The notes beneath the pieces were generated by a model. It made no database searches. It was not told where the DNA came from and saw nothing but the letters and a program-made list of their open reading frames with translations. Source: an uncultured Candidatus Saccharibacteria bacterium (GTDB lineage Bacteria > Patescibacteriota > UBA1384 > DTJR01). From it: DNA of 64,000 nucleotides. The stretch is from NCBI GenBank assembly GCA_964473025.1, contig CAYYMZ010000001.1, forward strand, positions 24,163 to 88,162, read 5' to 3'. Made by a program: the position numbers and the translations under genes. This document shows, one piece after another, positions 13,638-62,685 of the stretch (positions are counted from its first letter, which is position 1; every line of letters starts with the position of its first letter).

Positions 13638-13719
13638 CTTTTTGCCCTCATTTATTAGATAGAATCCAAACTAGCTGTTTTTAAAGGTAACACAAATTTG
13701 AGTATTTTCAACACCGCGG

Positions 13720-14634
13720 GTGCGGTTAGTTTTACCCGTTGAACGTGACGGAAGTATCATACTTGACGTGACCAAAATCGAGCCGGGGGAGGGACATCGG
13801 CCTTTGGAGGCCAAGTATGCGGGCGCAGATCCCGCAGCTCTGCATCGGCTCACCAAACGAATCCGGGGGCCAATCTCGACCTACTGTTGGCCGGGTGAAG
13901 CAACCGCGCTTTTGGCACCGTTTGACAAGCTCCAAACCCTGCCCGAGCACCTGATCACAAAACTCAAGGCGAAGTACGGGGTGTGGGAGATTGGGGTGCT
14001 TCTAAACGAAGTGAGAAATACCGGCGCCCCCTACATCTGGAACGTCGCCGAGCCAAGCGGCGGTATGGCAGAAAGTGCCAACCTTGAGCTTGAGGCGATG
14101 CTCGAAATTGTCGAGATGGGGTTCTACAGGGAAGATGGCTGGGCGTCCTTTGATGTCTCGCGCCTTGCGAGTGCTGACCACTCGCAGGAAGTACTCGCCG
14201 AGCAGGAACGCTTGTGGCGTTCCATTAACCCCACCCTCGAGCGCAGGTGCGCGGTAGAGCTCTTGCCGATTGATCGTTTCGGCACAGATACCTTCAACGG
14301 GCGCCGTGGGATTATCTCGGTGCGCAAGGACGGCGGCCTCGGTTTTTTGAGAGCCGCTTACCTCCCTCTCAAAGAGGACGGATGGCGTCTGCGCGATCTG
14401 GAGGAGCATTTCGATCCGCAAAGCCAAACGAGCCAGATGCTCGACCGTAAGATCGTGGGGATTGTCGAGCGCATTGGCGGCAGATCGTCGCTGATGCTCG
14501 AGTTCGCCCCTAATGGCAGGCTTGATGAGTGCGGCCTGCACGTGGCCTTATCGGGCGAAGCGCTCAAGTACAACATCGGGCATCTAACCCGCTACGCGCT
14601 CGGTCCACGCGGTCTCGGCTGGATTAAGGACTAG
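13720..14634 (+). CDS. hypothetical protein (304 aa) in GC-rich islet
   Basis: 915-nt ORF in ~60% GC DNA (long ORFs unlikely by chance at this GC); GTG start, no clear SD; no recognisable motif. Confidence 0.5.
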   Translation: MRLVLPVERDGSIILDVTKIEPGEGHRPLEAKYAGADPAALHRLTKRIRGPISTYCWPGEATALLAPFDKLQTLPEHLITKLKAKYGVWEIGVLLNEVRNTGAPYIWNVAEPSGGMAESANLELEAMLEIVEMGFYREDGWASFDVSRLASADHSQEVLAEQERLWRSINPTLERRCAVELLPIDRFGTDTFNGRRGIISVRKDGGLGFLRAAYLPLKEDGWRLRDLEEHFDPQSQTSQMLDRKIVGIVERIGGRSSLMLEFAPNGRLDECGLHVALSGEALKYNIGHLTRYALGPRGLGWIKD

Positions 14635-14657
14635 CAGTACTACACAAGGAGGCAAAT

Positions 14658-15294
14658 ATGAATATCAGGTTTGTGCTGTTTGACATCGGTAACGTACTGG
14701 CGCTGGCGGATCGCCGGCGGACGGTGGAAGCGCTCATATTGCGCCACGGCGTCCCACGGGAGTTGGCCGAGGGTTACTTCGACCGCGCCGACTATGCCAC
14801 CCTAGGCCGGGGGGCAAATCAAGTGGGAAGAGTACTGTCAGCGTCTTCGTGAGCAGTGGCTTGTCGAGATCCCCGATGAAGATATTCACAGGGCACACGC
14901 TGGTCACATCTACGCTCTCGATGAGGAAGTAGCCGAATTGATTGCGAGAATTGAGGCCAAGCCTAATGCGCTAAAGGTGGCTGGTGTAACTAACACCAGT
15001 GGGGTCGAATTTGTGCGCTACTGTAATCTCAACGTAACCCTTGTTCTCGATCCGGTCTGGTGCTCATACCAACAAGGAGCGCTCAAAGGCGGTGAGGGGA
15101 TTTTCGGGCGGATTGTTGGCGCATGGATTCCGGATAACCTCGGCGTCGGGGTGGGGCCAGATCAGGTTCTACTCATCGACGATAGTCCCGAGAACTGTGT
15201 CGCGGCAGCCGCGGCAGGGCTGACAACGTTCCAGTACACTCCCTACCAACCCTGGCTTCTGGAGGCCTATCTCCGGGAGCAGGAAATTATATAG
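14658..15294 (+). pseudogene. HAD-superfamily hydrolase interrupted by a frameshift in a G6 homopolymer
   Basis: HAD motif I FVLFDIGNVL at N-terminus (ORF 14658-14852) and motif VLLIDDSPEN..AAAGL in ORF 14938-15294; deleting one G at 14809-14814 fuses the frames (..DYATLGRGQIKWEEYCQRL..). Confidence 0.7.
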
Positions 15295-15323
15295 TGAGTG
15301 TCAGCGTAAAGGAGATGATCACT

Positions 15324-15352
15324 GGGGGCCCCGACAGGCCCCCTTTCCTATC
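15324..15352 (+). terminator. rho-independent terminator
   Basis: GGGGGCC-ccgaca-GGCCCCC perfect 7-bp GC stem followed by TTTCCTATCTT; marks 3' edge of GC-rich islet. Confidence 0.7.
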
Positions 15353-42794: not shown

Positions 42795-42916
42795 CCGAGC
42801 CAAATTTTACCTTAAGTTACCTATAATTTCAATCATTTTGATTGCATATTTGGCTCAAAATGATATATTTATCTGTTCGTCGCATCGTTGACAATCCGAC
42901 AGGGAGGGGATTCAGG

Positions 42917-43732
42917 ATGACAATTGGCGTTGGTATTCTGGCAGGAGGTCAGGGGAAGCGTCTCAAGCAGAATGTGCCGAAAGCGGAGGCACCACTCTAC
43001 GGCAGGCCGATGTGAGCTTACACGTGCGAAGCGGCACTGGAGATTACCAGGGAGCAGATCCAAATGGTCGTGCCGGCAGGAAGGCAGATTCACCACCATC
43101 AGGTAGAGTGCCTTGATACCCGCCATTCGTACATGGGCGATCTGTTTCAGCTTGTTGAACGGGCAAGGGAAAGAGAGTACGACCGTTTTCTGGTCATCAA
43201 TGCCGACTCCGTGCTGGTGACGGCCAAATCCCTACAGAGTTTCCTGGAATTGACCGAAGGGAGCGAAGCCGGCATTATCTGGCCGGCGATCCGACGCCAC
43301 TCCATCCCAGAGATGCTCCGGCAGACGGTCTTGAACGACCTGCCGGGGAGACCGGATCTCATCCGCAGCGGGGTTATGATGTTCAGGCCAGCGTCACTTC
43401 ACCCCAAAAAGAACATTCTTCGTAAACTAGCCCGCGATCCGAACAAGATAGTGCTCAGATCGCCTCTTGGCTTACCGTTCTGGGCCTTCAGGAGAGTTCA
43501 AGCGGAGTTTTACCGCCGCTATGCCGAGCTTCCTCTTCTTGGTCTGCGCAACTGCATCATGTGGGGCATGAAACTGCTCAACACAGAGGAGATCAAGAGC
43601 TGCATGAAAAGTTGTTTGGGTTGCGAGAGGGTAGAAATGCCGGAACTGGACATCGGGGTATTCGGCTTCGACGTCGATACGCCCAAAGAGCTGAAGCTGG
43701 CAGAGGACTATCTGCGCAGGTGGGGAAGATAA
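42917..43732 (+). pseudogene. MobA-like NTP-transferase (nucleotidyltransferase) gene with in-frame TGA at 43013-43015
   Basis: N-terminus GILAGGQGKRL..LYGRPM-[TGA]-AYTCEAAL continues in same frame as 222-aa ORF; strong SD GGGAGGGG; GC-rich; stop falls where MobA homologues have Trp. Confidence 0.55.
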
Positions 43733-48375: not shown

Positions 48376-48516
48376 ACTCTAAATTTAACAAAATCAGGTT
48401 GAATTATCAACTTCATTTTCTTGGGCCTCTTTTAAAGAGGCCATCTTCCGAAGCAAATAGAATTTGCATCTGACTTCTCGCACATATTTATGCGATAAAT
48501 CGGTGCGAATTAATTT

Positions 48517-48546
48517 AAAAAAAGCGGCCCCCTGTGAGGGGGGCCG
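48517..48546 (-). terminator. rho-independent terminator (minus strand) ending GC-rich operon 50078-48582
   Basis: CGGCCCCC-tgtga-GGGGGCCG 8-bp GC stem with A7 on plus strand (T7 on minus). Confidence 0.7.
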
Positions 48547-48581
48547 TAGAGTCCGATCGTGCCCCTAGGGGGCGGTCGGAC

Positions 48582-49427
48582 CTATGAGATGCGGTCGAGG
48601 AAGTGGGGATCGTGGTCAAGGTGGTGCCTGATGGCGGCCGCGTCTGACTTGGAATGTGACGACACCGGAAGTGTCGGCCGCGCGAGCAGGTAGAGGACCC
48701 AGTAGGTGGCCGCGACGACGATGAGCTCGGCGGCAAGCCTGCCAATCATCATGGTGTCAGAACCAACGACCATGACTGACAGGGCTCCAAAAATCGGTGC
48801 CGCGGCTACTACTACTAACCCAAGGCCATATCGCGAGATCTTGTATGGCCTGTGTGCGATTGCGGCGCCTGTCATACCCCAGAACAGACAGCCGAACAGA
48901 GCAAGTGCAGGCCAGAGCAGGTAAACCAACGCGAAGATCTCCCCATTCAGATTCGCAAGATGGGGGAAGATTCTTTGTGCAAGGTAGTGAACCGCGAAGG
49001 AGCTGACAAACAGCGTCACCCATCCCACCGCAGTCAGGACCTTGATCAGCTTGAAACTGACCCGCTCGAGGTCGCCCTCGACGATGCGGATTGGGTCTGC
49101 CGTAGTGTGTAGGACCCAGGCACCAATCGCCGCGGCGCAGAACAGCCACCCGCTGATGGCATCCCAATAGACGCCTATGCAAACAGCCGCTATTGCCAGT
49201 ACTGCCAGCGTACTGATGCAAATCCCGTTGCCCGCCAGTTCGTGCTTCCCTGACTTGATCTCGAGTCCATTGAGGATGTAGGTAACGACGCGAAGGGGGA
49301 TCAGGCCAACCAGAATTCCGGTGGCCATGGCCCAAAGCGGCGGATGAGGCAGGCGAAACGCGGCGATTGAGACGTAGGCGATGGCCGCGTAAATCATCGC
49401 GTAAATCAGAAAACGCCTGAAACGCAT
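48582..49427 (-). CDS. hypothetical polytopic membrane protein (GC-rich islet)
   Basis: 281 aa, ~8 hydrophobic helices; ~58% GC. Confidence 0.5.
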   Translation of the reverse strand: MRFRRFLIYAMIYAAIAYVSIAAFRLPHPPLWAMATGILVGLIPLRVVTYILNGLEIKSGKHELAGNGICISTLAVLAIAAVCIGVYWDAISGWLFCAAAIGAWVLHTTADPIRIVEGDLERVSFKLIKVLTAVGWVTLFVSSFAVHYLAQRIFPHLANLNGEIFALVYLLWPALALFGCLFWGMTGAAIAHRPYKISRYGLGLVVVAAAPIFGALSVMVVGSDTMMIGRLAAELIVVAATYWVLYLLARPTLPVSSHSKSDAAAIRHHLDHDPHFLDRIS

Positions 49428-49445
49428 TGGTATTCCTCCTTTCGG

Positions 49446-49901
49446 TTACGGTCCTTGCCGATCAAGGACTTCGACGTCTTCAGGGCTGTAGACATCTTGC
49501 TCGGGAGAAACCGCAGGTTCTTCGGTGGTGGGTTTTGCCGCTTCGTCCCAGACGAGGCAACCGAGGATGGTTGCGACGATGGAGATGGATGGAATCAATG
49601 TCCAAGCAAGCCATGTTCTTCCCCCAGCAAGGCCGGCGACAAGCGTCTCAACGCCCAAGACCGCCACAATTGTTGCCACGGCAGCGACCCGGGCAGCATA
49701 CTCGTCGAATGTGCTAGAAGGATTGCTGGTCATCCAGAACCAGAGCCAAACGCAACCAGCCCCAATCAGCACCCCGACGGCGATTTTGCCTTCGATGGCA
49801 CCCGCTGCTCCACCGGCAATCCAGCAGAGGAGTCCTACTAAGTATGCGGCTAGTAGGCTTAGTATTGCTCCCTTTACGAACGGTTGAATCTTGTACCACA
49901 T
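49446..49901 (-). CDS. hypothetical membrane protein (GC-rich islet)
   Basis: 151 aa, 4 TM, acidic C-terminus. Confidence 0.45.
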   Translation of the reverse strand: MWYKIQPFVKGAILSLLAAYLVGLLCWIAGGAAGAIEGKIAVGVLIGAGCVWLWFWMTSNPSSTFDEYAARVAAVATIVAVLGVETLVAGLAGGRTWLAWTLIPSISIVATILGCLVWDEAAKPTTEEPAVSPEQDVYSPEDVEVLDRQGP

Positions 49902-50168: not shown

Positions 50169-50828
50169 ATGTGCTATATTCGGCTTATGCGTTATCGGCA
50201 AAAATATTTAAATCGGGCAAAAATTGCGGCGCGCGCTTTGAGCTTTGTGCCGTTTTTGCGCATGGCGGGATTAAACGGTTCGATGGTCAGAGGAGATGAT
50301 ACAAGAAAAAGCGATATTGATTTTTTATGCATTGCCAAAGCGGGGCGGTTATACACAGCAAGATTTTTTGCGACTTTGTATGTTGCCATAACGGGTTGGC
50401 GGCGGCATGGCAAACGGGTAGCGGGGCGTATTTGTTTAAACTGCTTTTTGTCTGACCGAAAGCCAGATATTACACCCAAAAATCCCAAGTCAAAAAAGAA
50501 AGTGGCTTGGGCGTATAAATACACGATTACATTAGTTCAAGATGGCAGGATTACCGAGAAGTTTTTTGAGACGAACGAATGGTTTGCAAATTATAAAGTC
50601 CCCGGTCAAAAATATAGCCACAAATTGCAGGAAGAGATTTTTAAGTTTTTCCCGATCAGGCGACGCAAGTTTAGCGAAAGATTGATAGAAGGAAAATTCG
50701 GCGATTGGATTGAGAGAAAATTGATGAAATATCAGGTTAAACGAATTCTACGCGGTAAAAATACGAATGATGAAACAGTAGCGACAAAATCAGAAATAAG
50801 ATTGCACCCGAGAAAAGTTTATAAATGA
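50169..50828 (+). CDS. nucleotidyltransferase-domain protein (Pol-beta superfamily)
   Basis: GSMVRGDDTRKSDIDFL motif (GS..D.D); 219 aa. Confidence 0.6.
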   Translation: MCYIRLMRYRQKYLNRAKIAARALSFVPFLRMAGLNGSMVRGDDTRKSDIDFLCIAKAGRLYTARFFATLYVAITGWRRHGKRVAGRICLNCFLSDRKPDITPKNPKSKKKVAWAYKYTITLVQDGRITEKFFETNEWFANYKVPGQKYSHKLQEEIFKFFPIRRRKFSERLIEGKFGDWIERKLMKYQVKRILRGKNTNDETVATKSEIRLHPRKVYK

Positions 50829-50856
50829 AAAGGGAGCCCCTGCGGGGGCTCCCTGA

Positions 50857-51087
50857 CTAACTTCGGCAGTCGGGGGCGGATCGCGCCTCGACAGAGTCGG
50901 AGACGACGACCACACTCACCTTGTTCGCCTTCGGGTCAAAGGGGAGGGGATGGGATTGCACAATCCTCCGGTCAGGGTTATGGGCCTTCCACAAAGCGAG
51001 GATCTTTTCCACTGCTCCCTGTATGTTCAAGGCGTGATGAGAGGCTGGGTCAACATCAGTGCTTACGGTTTCGATTTGCTGATCCAT
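50857..51087 (-). CDS. hypothetical protein (76 aa, GC-rich)
   Basis: ORF in GC-rich stretch, no motif. Confidence 0.35.
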   Translation of the reverse strand: MDQQIETVSTDVDPASHHALNIQGAVEKILALWKAHNPDRRIVQSHPLPFDPKANKVSVVVVSDSVEARSAPDCRS

Positions 51088-51143
51088 CTCGCACCTCCTG
51101 TGTGCTACCGAATGAATGTCTGACTACTGATCGGACACGATGC

Positions 51144-51683
51144 TTACATCATCGCGTCGTTCGGATCGCCTGCGAGCTGGGAAAGGTCGGCCACTAGCCC
51201 TTCTCTCCGCGGGTTCTTCGGCTCGAATAGCCCGACCGCATCGGAGCCGGCGACCAGTTCGCCGACTTTAGCAACATCGCCGTTGAGGGGGAACCCCCAC
51301 GGCGGTGGGAGAAAGTCCCCACCCCCGCAGATTTTGTTGCCCTTCTCGTCGTAGAGGAAGGTCTCTGCCGGGTGTGATGGTGTCGAGATGCGCCGGGCAA
51401 AGGAGGCGATTTCCTTGAGCTGCTCCACGGATCTCATCCGATCCACTTGCAGTAAGATTGCCATGGTGGCGATGAGGCCGGTTGCGACGAAGCACGCTCC
51501 TTGGACGACCCAGTAGAGATCGGCTAGCCCCGCGAAGAACAGTGTGAAGATTCCGACTGGCAAGAGAATCCAAAACAGCCGGCTTGCCAACCTTCCCATG
51601 CGAGCGTAATGGTTCCACCACGCCCGATAGTGGGTCTTACTGTAGTGCACGCCCCGATCTACTTCCTGCATTTCAGCAGCCAT
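51144..51683 (-). CDS. hypothetical membrane protein (179 aa, GC-rich)
   Basis: two TM helices then soluble domain. Confidence 0.45.
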   Translation of the reverse strand: MAAEMQEVDRGVHYSKTHYRAWWNHYARMGRLASRLFWILLPVGIFTLFFAGLADLYWVVQGACFVATGLIATMAILLQVDRMRSVEQLKEIASFARRISTPSHPAETFLYDEKGNKICGGGDFLPPPWGFPLNGDVAKVGELVAGSDAVGLFEPKNPRREGLVADLSQLAGDPNDAMM

Positions 51684-51801
51684 CCCGATCCCTCCCTATG
51701 TCAAGATTGCACGACTCTCAATTTCTTGAGTCCATAATGATATGTAATTTGAGGTAAGATGTCAACTGGAAAAGAGAAAAAATGCTTTGAGTAAAGTCAA
51801 C

Positions 51802-51904: not shown

Positions 51905-53840
<1,936 letters not shown>

Positions 53841-53903
53841 TCGCAAGCGATTACAAAGTCAAAAGTCAGAACTAGAAAGTCAAAAATAAGGAGACGCAAA
53901 AAA

Positions 53904-53926
53904 GCGCCCGTCTGGGTGCTTTTTTG
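53904..53926 (+). terminator. rho-independent terminator after groEL
   Basis: GCGCCC-gtct-GGGTGC followed by TTTTTTG. Confidence 0.7.
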
Positions 53927-53939
53927 CTTGAGTTTAACT

Positions 53940-54750
53940 TCTAGTTTCTAAAATGGTCTGGACACCGGACGTGACGGGGATGTCGCGTCCGGTGTCCTTG
54001 GGGAGGAGGCCGTTCCTGCAGTCTGCAGTCAGGTTTGGCCTGGAACCGATGAACCCGAGCCAACAGGATTCATCGTCGCTGCCTCTTGGGAAGGCAGCAA
54101 AAATGGGCGAGCAGCAAGTTCCCCCCGGAAGCAAGCTGCTCGCACCGAGTCGGTTTTGGGGCAGCCAGGAGGGGTCGGGGCCCCTAACCGACATCTCAGA
54201 TGATGGCAGCCGGTGGCAAAACCGGATGATCAGATGATGGGATGATCGGAGATGGTTTGCCACCGGAGCGATACGGAGTTAGGAGGAAGATGGCCGGACC
54301 GGACAGGTAGGGATTTGGAAGCTCGGAGCCAAGAACTATCCTTTTACCCTTTTCGCCGCGGTGCGGCACCCTTGTCCGGTCCGGTGCGGTTGCCAGGGTT
54401 TCCCCCAGCGCCCTCGAGGAGGTTCAGGATTAGAAAGAAGTGCGACCGGATAAACCCCTGGTCTGGGTAGTCAATTTGTGAAACCCAGGGCGGTGTCCGC
54501 TCCCGTCAACCTCCAAGCTGCCATAGTCGTGAGGTGCCTAGAGATTGAGCGAACGCCGTTAACACAGGCCCTATCCGGAGGACCTCCGGTCCCCATAAAA
54601 CCGGAGATTTTGGGGCAGCCGGAGCTCTGGCCTTGATTCGCCTTGGCCCCGGAAATTTCAGTCGTTTCAGTGATCGTTCGCAAAGATGCGGATTAAGCGT
54701 AATTTATCATTTTCAACCCGATTTGTCAAGACAAAACAGGTCGGATTGGC
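53940..54750. other. GC-rich ORF-poor highly structured region (candidate ncRNA or decayed island DNA)
   Basis: no convincing ORF on either strand over ~800 nt; perfect 12-bp hairpin GGACACCGGACG/CGTCCGGTGTCC (53960-53996), 9-bp GCGAGCAGC/GCTGCTCGC (54106-54145), CCGGAGG/CCTCCGG. Confidence 0.3.
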
Positions 54751-54798
54751 AAAAAAAGAGCGCCCGGCCCCAGTTCTTGTAAACTGGGGCTGGGCGCT
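54751..54798 (-). terminator. rho-independent terminator (minus strand)
   Basis: 17-bp stem AGCGCCCGGCCCCAGTT/AACTGGGGCTGGGCGCT (one G-U) with T7 on minus strand. Confidence 0.7.
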
Positions 54799-54819
54799 GG
54801 GTATGACCGGTTGTAGCGG

Positions 54820-55113
54820 TCAGTGGCCGCTGGAGGTGGCCAGAAGCACGGAGCAGTTGGCGATGCAGTGACCGTTGATGATAACGGCACTGCAGCTGCA
54901 GCGACCTTCGCCGGCATTGTAGAGGCTGTCGTGGAGCGCAGTATCACCGCTGCGATAACGCTCACCGACGGTGGCCATCGAGACCAACTCGACATTGTGG
55001 CCATCGTCCTGCAGGCAGATGCCGAGGGCCGGTACGGTGGCGCCCTCCTCGTTGTAGCTATAGGCAGTCTGGTTGACGATGGCTGCTGTCGTTGTCGAAA
55101 GTCCGTTTTGCAC
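54820..55113 (-). CDS. small Cys/Ser-rich protein (97 aa)
   Basis: GTG start with SD AGGAGAG 8 nt upstream; terminator immediately downstream; C-terminal GRCSCSAVIINGHCIANCSVLLATSSGH. Confidence 0.55.
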   Translation of the reverse strand: MQNGLSTTTAAIVNQTAYSYNEEGATVPALGICLQDDGHNVELVSMATVGERYRSGDTALHDSLYNAGEGRCSCSAVIINGHCIANCSVLLATSSGH

Positions 55114-55137
55114 GAATAAATCTCTCCTGGTGTTAGA

Positions 55138-55608
55138 TTAACTGTCACAACCGCCGAGGCACTCGCCAGCGATGATCGGCAGACCGCACGTGGAGCAGAA
55201 CTTGACACCGAAACGCCTGAAGGCGCGGCGCATCACGTCGGTTCCATCGCGGATCAGCTCTCTCGCCCGTTCAGGCGAGATCAGCTCCACTTGCCCTTCC
55301 TCCAGTATCCGATCGTGCGTGCACGGCACTTCACTATCGTGCTTAGTGCAGACCATTCCGAAGACCGAGCAGAAGACGAGCTCCGGATCGGGCGGTGGTG
55401 GCTCTTCGGTCTTGACGTAGAGTTCCTCAACCTCGGCGGGCAGGGGACCGAACACGACGCTACAGTTCGGACATTGCTTCGTGTCTGGTGTGAGTGTGAA
55501 CAGGCAATTCTGGCAGATCCAGCTCCCATCGTCGAGATGACGCGGTGGTTGGATCTCAACGGGCGGTTTCACCTTAAGGGCGGTTGGTTTTCTCAGACGC
55601 CAAAGCAT
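55138..55608 (-). CDS. double zinc-ribbon hypothetical protein
   Basis: SD GGAGGG upstream of ATG 55608; CQNC..CPNC and CSTC..C..C motifs. Confidence 0.6.
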   Translation of the reverse strand: MLWRLRKPTALKVKPPVEIQPPRHLDDGSWICQNCLFTLTPDTKQCPNCSVVFGPLPAEVEELYVKTEEPPPPDPELVFCSVFGMVCTKHDSEVPCTHDRILEEGQVELISPERARELIRDGTDVMRRAFRRFGVKFCSTCGLPIIAGECLGGCDS

Positions 55609-55666
55609 GGCGATCCCTCCAAACAAATGTAGTGAACGTCTGAACTAGGATAATTCAGATCATACG

Positions 55667-55695
55667 ATTATAAACCTAATATAAAAAGAGGTCAA
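55667..55695 (-). promoter_or_regulatory. sigma70-type promoter of zinc-ribbon/Cys-peptide operon
   Basis: minus strand TTGACC-17 nt-TATAAT, ~55 nt upstream of start. Confidence 0.55.
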
Positions 55696-55726
55696 TATCA
55701 ATAATGGTTTTAAAAGTGAATCGAAA

Positions 55727-55957
55727 TTATTTCGGGATTTTTTGAATAAGGTCCCAGAGAGAAATACCCACTTGTTTGACGGCCGGATAGGCGGCGGGTA
55801 ATAATAGCAAAAATATTACAATCCAAATCAGATTTTTTCGTAAAAATTTAATCAGGGCAAAAACGAGAATAACGATAACAATAATCGAAAGAGGCAACCG
55901 GTAGGCCTCGGGGATAAGTTGCAACGCCTGATTATAATAATTAATTACTGTCTGCAT
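55727..55957 (-). CDS. small membrane protein (76 aa)
   Basis: two hydrophobic helices; no motif. Confidence 0.4.
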   Translation of the reverse strand: MQTVINYYNQALQLIPEAYRLPLSIIVIVILVFALIKFLRKNLIWIVIFLLLLPAAYPAVKQVGISLWDLIQKIPK

Positions 55958-56024
55958 AAGCTAATTATAAACCAAAAATCAAAATTACAAATGTCAATTG
56001 AAATCCAAAGCTCAAATCATCAAA

Positions 56025-56387
56025 TCATTTTTTTAGAATTGAAGAGAAGATGAGAAGCAATTCCTGCGATTCTCTCCATAACTTTCGGCATTCTTCTTTC
56101 TGCTTAGGATTTGCATCAGCCATGATTCTTAGCCAATATCTTGTTTCTTTTGCCTCCTTCTTACAGATTGATATTTTATGCTTAAAATCTTTCTTAGAAT
56201 TGCAAGCATCCGCTTCACAGTAGTTTGCTCCTATACTTGAAGAAGCTCTAACGAGCTGCGTGACAAGAGGTTTGTTGATCGAGTTAGCTGGTGTCTTCTT
56301 CAAAAGCCTAATAACATCGAGAGTAAAAGCAGTCGTTCTTTCTTCTAAATCATATTTTGGTTTATGATTTTGAGCTTTATTTGTCAT
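56025..56387 (-). CDS. four-helix-bundle protein (23S rRNA intervening-sequence protein family)
   Basis: LVTQLVRASSSIGANYCEA..KISICKKEAKETRYWL matches family consensus; start at internal Met MTNKAQ. Confidence 0.65.
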   Translation of the reverse strand: MTNKAQNHKPKYDLEERTTAFTLDVIRLLKKTPANSINKPLVTQLVRASSSIGANYCEADACNSKKDFKHKISICKKEAKETRYWLRIMADANPKQKEECRKLWRESQELLLIFSSILKK

Positions 56388-57321
56388 TTGGGCTTTCGGC
56401 TTTATCGTTTGCGGTTCTATTATGGAACCGCTTATGTATCTCGTGCAAATGCTTGTCGGTAACATGGGTATAAACTTGGGTGGTGGTGATCGAAGAGTGG
56501 CCTAATAAACTCTGCACAGAGCGTAAATCCGCTCCGGCGCGCAAAATATCAGTGGCAAATGAATGGCGCAAAACGTGCGGCGTAACTTGTTTGACGATAC
56601 CGGCGCGCCTGGCCGCTTCGGCTACAATGCGCTCGACCTGCCTTGAGGTTAACCGCCCGCCGGATTCAGAGAGTTCATTCGAACCCAAATCCTCGCCGTT
56701 GGGCTTTGAATCTTTAATAAATAACGCCTTGTCTTTGTCGTGGCGCGCTTTGAGATATTTTTCGACCCACTCCTTGGCTTCGTCAGAGAGAAAAACGACA
56801 CGGCGTTTGCCGCCTTTGCCGTCAACCGAAAATTCCTCGTGTCCCAGATTAACCTGATCGCGGTTTAGGCCGGTTAATTCCGAAACGCGTACGCCGGTGG
56901 AAAATAAAATTTCTAAAATCGCGCGGTTTCTAAGTTCCAAAATATTTTTTTCACCATATACATTGCGGATTCGCTCTAACTCTTGCGGTTCCAAAAAAGC
57001 AATTGCGCGCTCGGGAGTATCGGAGAGTTCAATTTTCTCGGGCGCAAGCGATTCAACATCTGTTTTTGATAAATATTTCAAAAAGCTCCGAATCGCAATC
57101 ATATAATAGTTCATCGTTTTGTTTGCAAGGCCTCGCCGGTGCAAGACGAGCCGCCACTTTTTGATGAGTTCAAGGTCTATTTTTTTCACCGAAACTATAC
57201 CCTGACTTTCGGCAAATTCGGCAAATTTACTAAGATATGAATCGTAGTTGCGGATTGTCAGCTGGGAGTGCCCGCGCTCGAGTTCAATATATTCTAAAAA
57301 TTCTCTAATTTGTTTTTCCAC
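56377..57321 (-). CDS. xerC: tyrosine recombinase XerC/XerD
   Basis: C-terminal catalytic HVLRHSFATD..LLGHSSITTTQVYTHV with Tyr; 314 aa. Confidence 0.85.
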   Translation of the reverse strand: MEKQIREFLEYIELERGHSQLTIRNYDSYLSKFAEFAESQGIVSVKKIDLELIKKWRLVLHRRGLANKTMNYYMIAIRSFLKYLSKTDVESLAPEKIELSDTPERAIAFLEPQELERIRNVYGEKNILELRNRAILEILFSTGVRVSELTGLNRDQVNLGHEEFSVDGKGGKRRVVFLSDEAKEWVEKYLKARHDKDKALFIKDSKPNGEDLGSNELSESGGRLTSRQVERIVAEAARRAGIVKQVTPHVLRHSFATDILRAGADLRSVQSLLGHSSITTTQVYTHVTDKHLHEIHKRFHNRTANDKAESPNDK

Positions 57322-60613: not shown

Positions 60614-61711
60614 ATGTCATTATCAATCGGAATTGTGGGGCTGCCAAACGTCGGGAAATCGACGATTTTTAATGCACTCGTCAAATCGGAGCTCGCCGAA
60701 GCGGCAAATTATGCCTTTACAACGATTGATCCGAATGTTGGGGTGGTTGAGGTACCGGACGAACGGTTAAAAAAACTAGCAGAAGTTGAAAAATCAGACC
60801 GCATTGTGCCCGCAACGGTAAAATTTGTCGATATCGCGGGATTAATTGCAGGTGCGCATAAGGGGGAGGGGTTAGGAAATAAATTTTTATCGCATATCCG
60901 CGAGGTTGACGCAATTGCGATGGTGGTGCGGCTCTTTTCAAACAAAGACGTGATGCACGTTGCGGACAAAATGGATCCGAAAGATGATATTGTAACAATT
61001 ATGCTGGAACTTGTTTTGTCTGACTCGGAAACGCTGGGCAAAAAGCTATTTGCGGCCGAAAAAGACGCCAAAACAGGTTCAAAGGTTGCTACGGCACAAT
61101 TGGAAATTTATAAAAAAATCGAAAAATGTTTCGAGCAAAACAGACCGGCGATAGAGGCAAATTTGAACGATGTGGAAAAGGATTTAGTTGATGAAGCGAA
61201 TTTTTTAACCTTAAAACCGTTTCTATACGTTTTTAACGTCGATGAGGATGTGGCAACAGAATTACCGGAAGATTTAGTTGAAGAATTTGGACTAAAAAAT
61301 TTGGTCCAACCGGAGGGAGCAGTTGTTATCTCAGCCAAAATTGAGTCAGAACTGCCCAAATTAAACGAAACCGAACAAGAGATATTTTTGCAGGATTTAG
61401 GGCTGGATGAACCCGGATTAAACCGTCTTGCCAAAGCGGCCTATAAAACCTTAAATCTCATCCCGTTTTTTACCGCCGGGCCGATGGAAGCGCGGGCTTG
61501 GACGGTTAAAAAGGGAGATAGGGCACCACAGGCGGCGGGAAAAATCCACACAGATTTTGAAAATAAATTTATCAAGGCCGAAGTGGTCAATTTTAACGAT
61601 TTTGTTGCACTCGGGGGCTGGACTAAAACAAAGGAAGCGGGGAAGGCGAGGTTAGAGGGCAAGACCTATGAGATCAAAGACGGGGATGTGGTATTTATTC
61701 ACCACGGATAG
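60614..61711 (+). CDS. ychF: ribosome-binding ATPase YchF
   Basis: G1 GIVGLPNVGKST, TGS C-terminal domain; 365 aa. Confidence 0.9.
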   Translation: MSLSIGIVGLPNVGKSTIFNALVKSELAEAANYAFTTIDPNVGVVEVPDERLKKLAEVEKSDRIVPATVKFVDIAGLIAGAHKGEGLGNKFLSHIREVDAIAMVVRLFSNKDVMHVADKMDPKDDIVTIMLELVLSDSETLGKKLFAAEKDAKTGSKVATAQLEIYKKIEKCFEQNRPAIEANLNDVEKDLVDEANFLTLKPFLYVFNVDEDVATELPEDLVEEFGLKNLVQPEGAVVISAKIESELPKLNETEQEIFLQDLGLDEPGLNRLAKAAYKTLNLIPFFTAGPMEARAWTVKKGDRAPQAAGKIHTDFENKFIKAEVVNFNDFVALGGWTKTKEAGKARLEGKTYEIKDGDVVFIHHG

Positions 61712-61917
61712 CGCTCGGGTATCTTGCTCTCTCGGCACGCGTCATCTCATCCAGCGATGAGATGCGCTCAAACCTCGGCTTCACGGCCCCCCTATGGGGG
61801 AACCATGCCCGCTCGCCTGCGGACGGCGTCGAGAGCAACCACCCTCGCTCGGATATTCGAATTAAATTTTGTCTTGTAAAATTTTCTTGCTATAATTAAA
61901 CTAAATCAAGGAGGAGT

Positions 61918-62685
61918 ATGGTTGATAGTGCAAAGCCTTTAGGACAAGAACCAGGGGGCGGGTTACCGCCGGCAGAAGCAGCACCAGTTGAAGTGCCAGT
62001 TGATGGTGCGCCACAAGAAGCAGCACCAGCCGCTGTACCAGTAGAGCCAGCGCCAGCGGAAATAGCGCCAGATGATCTAGGTCCTGCCCAACAAGCGGTT
62101 GGAGAAGCGGCTGCGGCTGAGGAAGTTGTGCCTGCCACCAAACCTGCGCCAATAGAAGCCTCTGCAAAAAGTCCGGAAGATCTTTCAAGAATGGTAGCTG
62201 GGGATGAACACGAAAATCTGGAGAATTCGTTGGTCGGTGATCAAGGGCCAAATCCTGAAGAAGTTTTGCCAGGGCAAGAAGAAGCGATAACGGGTGGGAT
62301 AGAACCTGACATATACAGTCCCGATCCGCTCGTTCCAGAGCAAAAACCCGCAGCGGCAGCGGTACCCGCGGAACCGGTTACTGCTCAGCCACCTGCCGCG
62401 GAACCAGTTGCGCCTCAGTCGCCTGCCACAAAAGACGTCACACCTCTGAACCCATCATACAGGGTTGAATCTGAAGAGACAGAGGGGGATCGTCTAAGGA
62501 GAGAAATTAGTGAATTAACAGAACAAATGGCTGAAATTGAAAGAAAAAGGGATGTGATTAAGCCTCAAGCTGATGAATACGATAGATTGACCGAAGAGTT
62601 GAAAACCGTATATGCGAAATTTGATGGAAAGTGGAAGGAATTCGAAGCTTCGCCTGAATCAAAGAAAAATAGTCAGGTGGGATAA
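61918..62685 (+). CDS. hypothetical Pro/Ala/Glu-rich protein with C-terminal coiled coil
   Basis: SD AAGGAGG; promoter-like TATAAT at 61893; low-complexity N-terminal 180 aa. Confidence 0.5.
   Translation: MVDSAKPLGQEPGGGLPPAEAAPVEVPVDGAPQEAAPAAVPVEPAPAEIAPDDLGPAQQAVGEAAAAEEVVPATKPAPIEASAKSPEDLSRMVAGDEHENLENSLVGDQGPNPEEVLPGQEEAITGGIEPDIYSPDPLVPEQKPAAAAVPAEPVTAQPPAAEPVAPQSPATKDVTPLNPSYRVESEETEGDRLRREISELTEQMAEIERKRDVIKPQADEYDRLTEELKTVYAKFDGKWKEFEASPESKKNSQVG

What the first reader, a model, noticed from the sequence alone, without database searches (positions are those of the whole stretch)
53940..54750. ~800-bp GC-rich ORF-free region with very stable stems directly after groEL: candidate large structured RNA
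Between the groEL terminator and the terminator of the downstream minus-strand operon there is no credible ORF on either strand, yet the sequence is ~60% GC. It is full of long perfect stems: 12 bp at 53960-53996, 9 bp with a nested 4 bp at 54106-54145, GGGGCCCC, and CCGGAGG/CCTCCGG. RNase P P4 motifs (GGAAAGUCCGG, ACAGAAcCCGGCUUA) and tmRNA T-loop/tag motifs were looked for and not found. It could be a novel large ncRNA (ROOL/GOLLD-class), or a decayed coding island.
Basis: seen in the sequence. Interest (0 to 1): 0.6.

Follow-up and report, generated by a model that had tools for sequence, protein, structure and literature searches.

The report
Conserved 0.8-kb structured noncoding RNA candidate
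The ORF-free GC-rich stretch after groEL in this uncultured Berkelbacteria (CPR) genome is most likely a stand-alone, about 800-nt, heavily folded noncoding RNA on the opposite strand to groEL; it is kept by selection but seen in only two related lineages, matches no known RNA family, and has no known function.

Summary
Window 53940-54750 is about 59% GC in a genome of about 42% GC. It has no period-3 coding signal, no Pfam hit in six frames and no Rfam match. It folds far better than dinucleotide shuffles (z -6 to -9 on the minus strand), while GC-matched neighbouring genes give z about -1.

The only homolog found is in a syntenic metagenome contig (L086/L087, GroEL 95% identical). The region there is 81% identical overall and about 90% in a 226-nt 3' domain, although four-fold codon sites of the flanking genes are only about 60% identical. 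Nine of 13 indels are not multiples of three. So it is a selected noncoding element, not a decayed gene.

A conserved TTGACA-17-TAAATT promoter (54729-54701) and the flanking terminators point to a minus-strand transcript running from about 54694 to about 53896. Seventeen helices recur in independent folds of both homologs, and eight to fourteen pairs show compensatory changes. With only two sequences, covariation is suggestive, not proven.

It is not a ROOL, GOLLD or OLE member. More distant relatives carry unrelated hairpin-rich tails, sometimes behind a small zinc-ribbon ORF, in the same slot. This keeps a cis-acting or mRNA-remnant reading alive. Function is unknown. Interest is moderate.

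The parts
54701..54729 (-). Sigma-70-type promoter: TTGACA (54729-54724), 17-nt spacer ending in TG, then TAAATT (54706-54701). The predicted start is near 54694.
   Evidence: 10 of 12 matches with an extended -10, and the only promoter-like site in 53700-55000. The -35 hexamer and its surroundings are invariant in L086, where the -10 reads TAATCT. An equivalent TTGACA-17-TACTAT sits at the same place in L098.
53893..54697 (-). Proposed transcript of about 800 nt. It is noncoding and forms about 17 conserved helices.
   Evidence: Fold z-scores. Alignment A2 with L086 is 80.8% identical over 769 aligned positions, with 13 indels of which 9 are not multiples of 3. Four-fold sites of flanking genes are only about 60% identical.
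54582..54660 (-). 5' variable segment. It is 54.5% identical to L086, which is about the neutral level, and it folds differently in the two homologs.
54446..54578 (-). 5' domain: a long composite hairpin (helices 6-10), including an invariant 14-bp helix at 54507-54547 and 5 pairs with compensatory double changes.
54294..54384 (-). Central domain closed by an invariant helix of 12 + 4 bp. It contains the invariant stretch CCGAGCUUCCAAAUCCCUA, predicted to be mostly unpaired.
   Evidence: inverted repeat I5.
54045..54270 (-). Most conserved 3' domain (about 90% identity): five consecutive hairpins. The first is a 13-bp stem (54210-54266) whose 30-nt loop, rich in AUCAUC, differs at 1 of 30 positions.
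   Evidence: Alignment A3. Four single-base indels here rule out coding.
53960..53997 (-). 3' clamp hairpin of 16 bp with loop AUCCCC. Relative to L086 it shows one A-U to G-C double change, two G-C to G-U changes and one C.A mismatch repaired to C-G.
   Evidence: I3.
53896..53927 (.). Bidirectional intrinsic terminator shared by groEL (plus strand) and the proposed RNA (minus strand).
   Evidence: (I4). Conserved in L086 and L098. The stem is perfect on the plus strand and has one A.C mismatch on the minus strand.
54757..54800 (-). Strong intrinsic terminator of the upstream minus-strand operon (orf162-orf97). It separates that operon from the RNA promoter.
   Evidence: (I2: 17-nt arms, 94% complementary, followed by a U run on the minus strand). 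Conserved in L086.
54820..55113 (-). orf97: a small Cys-rich orphan protein in the same GC-rich island. It is context and a possible partner, not part of the RNA.
   Evidence: Codon-position GC pattern. 62% aa identity to the L086 homolog. Paralog of the C-terminal part of orf162. No family in Pfam, NCBIfam, PHROGs or PADLOC.
55138..55626 (-). orf162: an orphan protein with a weak zinc-ribbon match (context).
   Evidence: Weak Pfam DZR match. Only 3 representatives among 1.84 billion proteins.

Best explanation
The region encodes a stand-alone, highly structured noncoding RNA of about 800 nt on the minus strand, convergent with groEL.

Transcription most likely starts about 7 nt downstream of a sigma-70-type promoter with an extended -10 (54729-54701). 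That promoter lies just after the terminator of the upstream orf162-orf97 operon. The transcript most likely ends at the bidirectional terminator shared with groEL (53927-53896).

The RNA folds into:
- a poorly conserved 5' segment;
- a long composite 5' hairpin domain;
- a central domain closed by an invariant helix of 12 + 4 bp;
- a strongly conserved 3' domain of five consecutive hairpins, followed by a 16-bp clamp hairpin.

Invariant sequences predicted to be unpaired (a 30-nt AUCAUC-rich loop and CCGAGCUUCCAAAUCCCUA) suggest contacts with a partner or tertiary contacts.

Shown here: absence of coding, purifying selection, unusual foldability in both homologs, and conserved promoter and terminator motifs.

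Inferred: transcription itself, the strand, and the exact ends.

A guess only: that the molecule acts as a stable RNA scaffold or RNP component, possibly with the adjacent small Cys-rich zinc-ribbon proteins, rather than as a base-pairing regulator.
For: - Noncoding: no period-3 signal, no Pfam family in six frames, 9 of 13 indels against the homolog not multiples of 3, and no shared ORF.
- Selection: 80.8% identity overall and about 90% in the 3' domain. This compares with about 60% at four-fold sites of groEL, groES and the integrase, and 70-72% nt identity for the neighbouring orf97 and orf162. The 5' segment is at the neutral level (54.5%), so the conservation is mosaic and not one recent transfer tract.
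- Structure: minus-strand z of -8.9 in the window, -9.0 for the L086 homolog and -6.0 with my 40 shuffles, against about -1 for GC-matched genes. The RNAalifold consensus energy gives z -15 on the minus strand and -9 on the plus strand against column shuffles, with 14 double-compensated pairs against 7.7 +/- 2.6. Slid controls give 1-2. Independent MFE folds share 141 pairs in 17 helices.
- Transcription unit: the promoter is the only hit in 1.3 kb and is conserved in L086 and L098, and terminators lie on both sides.
- No known RNA family, no tRNA or tmRNA, and not repeated elsewhere in the window.
Against: - Only two homologous sequences exist, so covariation cannot reach statistical proof. 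When the window's single-sequence MFE is tested on L086, 30 changed pairs are kept and 37 are broken, barely better than slid controls.
- The strand-neutral wobble test is weak: 11 against 3 with the window as reference (p 0.03), but 3 against 4 with L086 as reference.
- Native MFE is equal on both strands. The z-score difference comes from base composition.
- There are no expression data.
- The family is extremely narrow. Nothing turned up with three patterns in viral contigs, in phage or plasmid records, or in 26 sources (window and related loci) scanned with a covariance model. A single 20-mer in JGI metagenomes hit only the L086 contig.
- In L098 the equivalent promoter drives a plausible 119-aa zinc-ribbon ORF followed by an unrelated hairpin-rich tail. 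L091 has an ORF plus hairpin tail too. So the slot may hold mRNA tails rather than dedicated RNA genes.
- The many long perfect stems look more like stabiliser or terminator hairpins than like the irregular helices of known catalytic RNAs.
Confidence: 0.55

Rival explanations
1. The region is a cis-acting structured tail or mRNA remnant. The slot between the orf97-like gene and groEL normally holds a small zinc-ribbon gene with a long hairpin-rich 3' tail. In the window lineage the ORF has been lost or was never present. The conserved hairpins would then act in cis, as a 3'-exonuclease barrier, RNA stabiliser or insulator between convergent transcription units (highly expressed groEL against this unit), and not as a trans-acting RNA.
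For: L098 has the same promoter, then a strong RBS (GAGGAGG-N7-ATG), a 119-aa Zn-ribbon ORF and a 490-nt hairpin tail with z -9.4. L091 has a DZR ORF and a 250-nt hairpin tail with z -4.9. The tails are not homologous between lineages, as expected if only 'being hairpins' matters. The window's stems are long and nearly perfect. The first 90 or so nt after the 5' end evolve neutrally.
Against: Sequences predicted to be unpaired are invariant while neutral sites are saturated: the 30-nt loop and a 19-nt junction. A pure hairpin barrier does not need that. About 90% identity over 226 nt exceeds the DNA identity of groEL (85.6%). No trace of the L098 or L091 ORFs is detectable in the window region (tblastn E >= 0.8). 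With no ORF upstream, there is nothing for the tail to stabilise.
Confidence: 0.22
2. The region is a DNA-level element: a cluster of palindromes that serve as protein-binding or recombination sites, for example linked to the nearby XerC/D-like recombinase or to a mobile island. Conservation would then reflect DNA function and not RNA function.
For: Many perfect inverted repeats. Native MFE is equal on both strands. The wobble asymmetry is weak. A tyrosine recombinase gene lies 1.6 kb away, and the groEL-xerC slot varies between lineages.
Against: The recombinase scores best as housekeeping XerC/XerD, not as an integron integrase. It is conserved next to PAP2 genes in all relatives. No copy of the palindromes occurs elsewhere in 64 kb. 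Hairpin loops and junctions are conserved as well as the stems. A conserved promoter and terminator frame the region. The region is GC-rich, unlike origins.
Confidence: 0.1
3. The region is a decayed coding island or pseudogene with no present function.
For: It lies in a GC-rich island together with fast-evolving orphan genes. ORFs of 57-109 aa occur. Relatives have an ORF at the equivalent position.
Against: 81-90% identity where neutral sites are about 60%. No protein-family signal in six frames. The six-frame search of 5.8 billion proteins found nothing, but this is a weak test because the word filter was saturated. Frameshifting indels sit inside the best-conserved blocks.
Confidence: 0.05
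4. The region encodes one or more unannotated small proteins.
For: Both homologs have a start codon at the same 5' position followed by the same six codons, MRTITE.
Against: There is no Shine-Dalgarno sequence upstream. The frames diverge after 6 codons through indels. There is no period-3 signal.
Confidence: 0.04

Closest known systems
ROOL, GOLLD and OLE: large 'ornate' bacterial ncRNAs (Rfam; Weinberg et al. 2017, PMC5737381; cryo-EM of homo-oligomeric assemblies, PMC12286853)
   Same: The size range is similar (about 0.6-0.8 kb, from my own knowledge). Like them it has no coding potential, many helices, appears to be a stand-alone transcription unit, and its biochemical function is unknown. 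It stands out as a GC-rich intergenic region in a lower-GC genome.
   Different: No sequence or structure similarity: no Rfam hit even at E<=10. Known from two lineages only, not hundreds. No association with tRNAs or prophages. The stems are longer and more perfect. Covariation is not established.
Hairpin-rich 3' tails and REP/BIME-like palindrome clusters between convergent genes, which act as mRNA stabilisers or terminators (from my own knowledge)
   Same: It lies between convergent units, consists of consecutive stable GC-rich hairpins, and ends at a bidirectional terminator. Sister lineages carry unrelated hairpin arrays at the same place.
   Different: It is not repeated elsewhere in the window. 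It has its own promoter with no ORF upstream. It is about 800 nt long. Its loops and junctions are conserved in sequence.
Sub-threshold Rfam look-alikes (sraL, RNAI, Phe_leader and others)
   Same: They share only a terminator-like hairpin followed by a U run.
   Different: All scores are far below gathering thresholds (for example sraL 23 against 39 bits). The matches cover the groEL terminator and not the region itself.

Membership tests
ROOL (Rfam) | Match to the family covariance model | tested here: not met
   No ROOL hit at gathering threshold over the whole window, nor at E<=10 on 53800-54850, nor at E<=1 on the L086 homolog.
GOLLD (Rfam) | Match to the family covariance model; usual tRNA or prophage neighbourhood | tested here: not met
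   No hit. The nearest tRNA is more than 11 kb away. No match in viral contigs or phage records.
OLE RNA (Rfam) | Match to the family covariance model; adjacent oapA-type genes | tested here: not met
   No hit. The neighbouring genes are orphan Cys-rich proteins with no family.
Group I / group II introns | Match to the catalytic-core models (Intron_gpI, Intron_gpII and the group-II D1D4 models); flanking exons or an RT/maturase ORF | tested here: not met
   No hit at E<=10. No RT or other ORF with a family. No split tRNA.
RNase P RNA / tmRNA / 6S / SRP | Match to the Rfam models; tmRNA tag (ARAGORN) | tested here: not met
Independent bacterial ncRNA gene (generic) | Own promoter and terminator, no ORF, conservation above the neutral level | tested here: met
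   Promoter. Terminators. No coding. 81-90% identity against about 60% neutral. All of this is computational.
Independent bacterial ncRNA gene (generic) | Detected transcript with defined ends | not testable with these tools
   No RNA-seq data are accessible.
Structured RNA with a conserved fold | Statistically significant covariation across many diverged homologs | tested here: inconclusive
   Only two sequences. 14 double changes against 7.7 +/- 2.6 in column shuffles and 1-2 in slid controls. The structure was derived from the same sequences, and the single-sequence MFE transfers poorly.
Protein-coding gene or pseudogene | Conserved reading frame, period-3 composition, similarity to proteins | tested here: not met
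Integron cassette array / attC sites | IntI-type integrase; repeated attC hairpins flanking cassettes | tested here: not met
   The recombinase scores 257 and 251 bits to XerC and XerD against 124 bits to the integron integrase model, below cutoff. There are no repeated hairpin units.

The most novel reading that the evidence does not exclude
This is a previously undescribed family of large (about 0.8 kb) ornate noncoding RNA, specific to a rare Berkelbacteria (CPR) lineage. It is expressed from its own promoter convergent with groEL and works as a folded RNA scaffold or RNP, perhaps with the adjacent orphan Cys-rich zinc-ribbon proteins. Sister lineages would carry non-homologous but equally hairpin-rich RNAs in the same slot, making it a rapidly turning-over 'structured-RNA cargo' locus in reduced genomes.
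Probability: 0.4. Interest if true: 0.65.

Novelty: new member of a known kind. Interest (0 to 1): 0.5.

Why it matters
Large structured bacterial RNAs of unknown function are few. Recent cryo-EM work showed that three of them (ROOL, GOLLD, OLE) form unexpected RNA-only assemblies (PMC12286853), so each new candidate is a potential new RNA architecture.

CPR bacteria have tiny genomes, so about 800 nt of selectively maintained noncoding sequence implies a real function there. I found no paper describing a large ncRNA in this group in the held library.

The value is limited for now by the very narrow distribution (two lineages), by the absence of expression data, and by the real possibility that it is only a cis-acting hairpin tail.

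Tried and rejected
Known-family and coding tests that found nothing:
- Rfam at gathering threshold and at E<=10 on the window region, and at E<=1 on L086 and L098. Only terminator-like sub-threshold hits appeared.
- ARAGORN on the region: nothing.
- Pfam on six-frame translations: nothing.
- A six-frame pseudo-protein against 5.8 billion proteins: nothing. This test was poor, because the word prefilter was saturated and it missed even the spurious ORF called in L086.

Searches for homologs:
- GroEL-anchored loci from GTDB genomes (80 loci, GroEL identity <=66%): no homolog by blastn or nhmmer.
- Contexts of closer GroEL relatives. P0003 gave the only homolog. The contigs of P0004 and P0009 end at groEL. 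P0005, P0012, P0016 and P0019 have different cargo downstream.
- Exact conserved 20-24-mers: 0 hits in viral contigs, and only the L086 contig for the one 20-mer scanned in JGI metagenomes.
- blastn against phage and plasmid records: no match.
- Covariance model R1 of the 3' domain against 26 sources (window and related loci) and against L098: only the window itself.
- Cluster members of the neighbouring proteins: no further variants.

Other ideas checked and dropped:
- DGR template/variable repeat, prompted by the nearby PF05635 gene: no repeat of the region anywhere in the window.
- Target search for the conserved loops within the window: only self-matches.
- Other GC-rich gaps in the window (50829-51143, 14635-14937) are not unusually structured (z -2.5 and -1.1) and contain an RBS plus ATG.
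- Homology of the L098 119-aa and L091 105-aa ORFs to translations of the window region: none.

Full report
**What is there**

The window comes from an uncultured Candidatus Berkelbacteria (CPR/Patescibacteria) genome. The GroEL encoded at 52206-53840 has its named close relatives among Berkelbacteria MAGs. The best GTDB species representatives reach only about 65% identity.

Downstream of groEL lies a bidirectional terminator (53896-53927). After it comes about 800 nt without a credible gene. This is followed by an AT-rich spacer, then a strong minus-strand terminator (54757-54800), and then two small minus-strand genes: orf97 (54820-55113) and orf162 (55138-55626).

GC is 0.58-0.61 against a window background of about 0.42. 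The GC-rich island runs on through orf97 and orf162 to about 55600, and the window has several other GC-rich patches that are coding. High GC on its own is therefore not diagnostic of RNA.

**It is not coding**

- The region has no period-3 signal (power 2.0-3.1, against 6-16 in neighbouring genes) and flat GC across codon positions. orf97, orf162 and the other GC-rich ORFs show a clear 0.70/0.45/0.60 pattern.
- None of the six translated frames hits a Pfam family at E<=1.
- A six-frame query against the 5.8-billion protein collection returned nothing. I regard that test as weak, because the candidate filter was saturated.

**Known RNA families**

cmscan against Rfam 15 finds only four tRNAs elsewhere in the window at gathering thresholds. 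At E<=10 the region gives only sub-threshold matches that sit on terminator hairpins. The same holds for the homolog in L086. ARAGORN finds nothing. RNase P, tmRNA, group I and II introns, ROOL, GOLLD, OLE and HEARO are thereby excluded as far as their models can see.

**Foldability**

- The minus strand of 53930-54750 folds with z = -8.9 and the plus strand with z = -4.5, using 20 dinucleotide shuffles.
- With 40 shuffles of my own on 53930-54697, the values are -6.0 and -3.8.
- GC-matched coding DNA next door (orf97 + orf162, and the orf281/orf151 island) gives only -0.4 to -1.3 on either strand.
- The excess structure is therefore specific to the noncoding stretch.
- The native MFE is the same on both strands (about -332 to -348 kcal/mol). 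The difference in z comes from base composition: the minus-strand RNA is C-rich, so its shuffles fold worse.

**Homologs**

The strain itself recurs, 100% identical, in five metagenome assemblies.

One diverged homolog exists, on contig Ga0172380_10003819 (JGI 3300014205) and its ENA twin (L086/L087). Its GroEL is 95% identical, and the gene order is the same: groEL, region, orf94, orf145, orf76, xerC-like.

Nothing else was found in any of these searches:
- 80 GTDB groEL loci;
- contexts of seven further Berkelbacteria GroELs at 79-82% identity;
- three conserved 20-24-mers in viral contigs;
- one 20-mer in 241 million JGI metagenome records, which hit only the L086 contig;
- phage and plasmid records;
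- a covariance model of the 3' domain over 26 sources, the window and related loci.

The neighbouring orf162 family has only three representatives among 1.84 billion proteins.

**Selection**

Between the window and L086, four-fold degenerate sites are only 59-62% identical in groEL, groES and the integrase, which is near saturation. orf97 and orf162 are 72% and 70% identical at the DNA level.

The noncoding region is 80.8% identical over 769 aligned positions, and the pattern is a mosaic:
- 54.5% in a 5' segment (window about 54582-54660);
- 80-85% in the middle;
- about 90% over the 226-nt 3' domain (54045-54270), with invariant runs of 25-36 nt.

Of 13 indels, nine are not multiples of three. 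Four single-base indels lie inside the best-conserved domain.

This is purifying selection on a noncoding element. The fine-scale mosaic argues against a single recent transfer tract. The 'decayed coding island' reading is therefore rejected.

**Transcription unit and strand**

The only sigma-70-like site in 53700-55000 is on the minus strand: TTGACA (54729-54724), a 17-nt spacer with a TG extension, then TAAATT (54706-54701).

The 22 nt around the -35 are invariant in L086, where the -10 becomes TAATCT. L098 has TTGACA-17-TACTAT at the equivalent place.

Upstream of the promoter is the operon terminator. Downstream, about 800 nt away, is the terminator shared with groEL, which has a U run on both strands.

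On the plus strand there is only a weak TTGAGT-15-TAAAAT (53929-53955, read; poorly conserved), and there is no plus-strand terminator at the far end.

I therefore place the RNA on the minus strand, from about 54694 to about 53896. This is an inference from motifs, not from expression data.

**Secondary structure**

The L086 homolog folds as well as the window sequence (z = -9.0).

Independent MFE predictions of the two sequences share 141 base pairs in 17 helices. These include invariant helices of 14 bp (54507-54547), 12 + 4 bp (54294-54384) and 12 bp (54105-54146).

The RNAalifold consensus has 211 pairs with none broken, and 14 pairs changed on both sides. Eight of those 14 lie in well-defined hairpins (helices 5, 6, 7, 9, 19 and 28).

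Controls:
- Column-shuffled alignments give consensus-energy z = -15 on the minus strand and -9 on the plus strand, and 7.7 +/- 2.6 double changes against 14 observed (z about 2.4).
- Slid-partner controls give 1-2 double changes.

These figures are encouraging but biased, because the structure was derived from the same two sequences. A stricter test is not convincing. Taking the window's single-sequence MFE and scoring L086's changes gives 30 pairs kept against 37 broken, hardly better than slid controls.

A strand-neutral count of one-sided transitions in helices predicted on both strands favours the minus strand with the window as reference: 11 G-U-compatible against 3, p about 0.03. With L086 as reference it does not (3 against 4).

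My conclusion is that many local helices are conserved and several covary. The global fold and the strand are not proven by covariation.

**Conserved unpaired sequence**

- The 30-nt loop of the 54210-54266 hairpin (CCAUCUCCGAUCAUCCCAUCAUCUGAUCAUCC) differs at one position.
- CCGAGCUUCCAAAUCCCUA (about 54308-54326) is invariant and mostly unpaired in the consensus.
- The junctions CCCAUUUUUG and CCUCCUCCCCAAGG are invariant.

At a divergence where silent sites are saturated, this suggests sequence-specific contacts. No complementary target was found in the 64-kb window.

**Context, and the complication**

The slot between groEL and the XerC/D-like recombinase varies among Berkelbacteria. The recombinase scores best as XerC/XerD and is not an integron integrase.

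| Locus | Content of the slot |
|---|---|
| L093 | ParE/RelB pair |
| L096 | GC-rich 90-aa ORF |
| L091 | GC-rich double-zinc-ribbon ORF, then a 250-nt hairpin-rich tail (z -4.9) |
| L098 | see below |

L098 is the only other lineage with an orf162 homolog (36-40% identity, depending on the aligner). It has the same order: xerC, four-helix-bundle gene, orf82, orf169, orf94, terminator, the same promoter. But the promoter is followed by a strong RBS, a plausible 119-aa zinc-ribbon ORF, and then a 490-nt GC-rich tail of long hairpins (z -9.4). The unit ends at the same bidirectional terminator.

That tail is not detectably homologous to the window RNA apart from the last 80 nt or so around the terminator. 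The 119-aa protein has no trace in the window region.

So this locus repeatedly carries hairpin-rich transcripts convergent with groEL, with or without a small ORF. This keeps a rival explanation open: the hairpins may act in cis as a stabiliser, exonuclease block or insulator, and the window version may be an ORF-less descendant.

Against that rival, there is no ORF here to stabilise, and loops and junctions are conserved in sequence as well as stems.

**Verdict**

| Reading | Probability |
|---|---|
| Genuine, selectively maintained, stand-alone structured ncRNA of about 800 nt on the minus strand, belonging to no described family | about 0.55 |
| Cis-acting structured tail or mRNA remnant | about 0.22 |
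| DNA-level palindrome element | about 0.10 |
| Pseudogene | about 0.05 |
| Small-protein reading | about 0.04 |

In kind it resembles the orphan 'ornate' large RNAs (ROOL, GOLLD, OLE; PMC5737381, PMC12286853), but it fails every membership test for them.

It is a new candidate within a known kind of object, namely large structured bacterial ncRNAs of unknown function. Its distribution is extremely narrow. Interest is moderate. It would rise sharply if transcription and a compact fold, or a protein partner, were shown.

Noticed in passing
window 13701-14950, 15051-15350, 42901-43450, 48501-49850, 50801-51700, 54800-55600, 61601-62500: There are several GC-rich (0.56-0.62) islands in a genome of about 42% GC. 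The ORFs I checked in them (13720-14634, 48582-49427, 49446-49901, 51144-51683, 54820-55113, 55138-55626) show a clear codon-position GC pattern. None has a significant Pfam family; orf162 gives only a sub-threshold DZR match. They look like fast-evolving orphan genes of unusual composition.
   Followed up: partly
window 54820-55113 (-) and 55138-55626 (-); L098 6511-6795: orf97 is a paralog of the C-terminal Cys-rich domain of orf162 (33% identity over 49 aa, E 3e-5; the shared motif ends in IIAG-x-C-x3-C). The orf162 family has only 3 representatives among 1.84 billion proteins.
   Followed up: partly
L098 6860-7915; L091 7770-8356: Other Berkelbacteria lineages carry, at the same place convergent with groEL, a small zinc-ribbon ORF followed by a non-homologous tail of 250-490 nt made of long, near-perfect GC-rich hairpins (z -9.4 and -4.9). 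L098 shares the promoter with the window.
   Followed up: partly
groEL-xerC interval: window 53840-56377; L086, L091, L093, L096, L098: The interval between groEL and the XerC/D-like recombinase is a variable slot. Its cargo differs between lineages (ParE/RelB in L093, a 90-aa ORF in L096). A PF05635 four-helix-bundle gene (window 56025-56465) is present in the window and L098 but absent in L086.
   Followed up: no
window 53929-53955 (+): A weak plus-strand promoter-like TTGAGT-15-TAAAAT lies just after the groEL terminator. The scan did not flag it because the spacer is 15 nt, and it is poorly conserved in L086. It would give an antisense transcript of the region with no terminator (read).
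   Followed up: no
window 54154-54166 and 54608-54620; 54196-54206 and 54230-54240: There are exact direct repeats inside the region: TTTTGGGGCAGCC twice, 454 nt apart, and TCAGATGATGG twice, 34 nt apart. In L086 the 54154 copy of the first repeat differs at one base and the 54608 copy is degenerate; the 54230 copy of the second is kept and the 54196 copy differs at one base. They may reflect internal duplication or repeated binding motifs.
   Followed up: no
window 50829-51143 (-) and 14635-14937 (+): Two other GC-rich gaps lacking ORFs of 90 aa or more are not unusually structured (z -2.5 and -1.1). Each contains an RBS followed by ATG, so they probably hold short or mis-delimited genes.
   Followed up: partly
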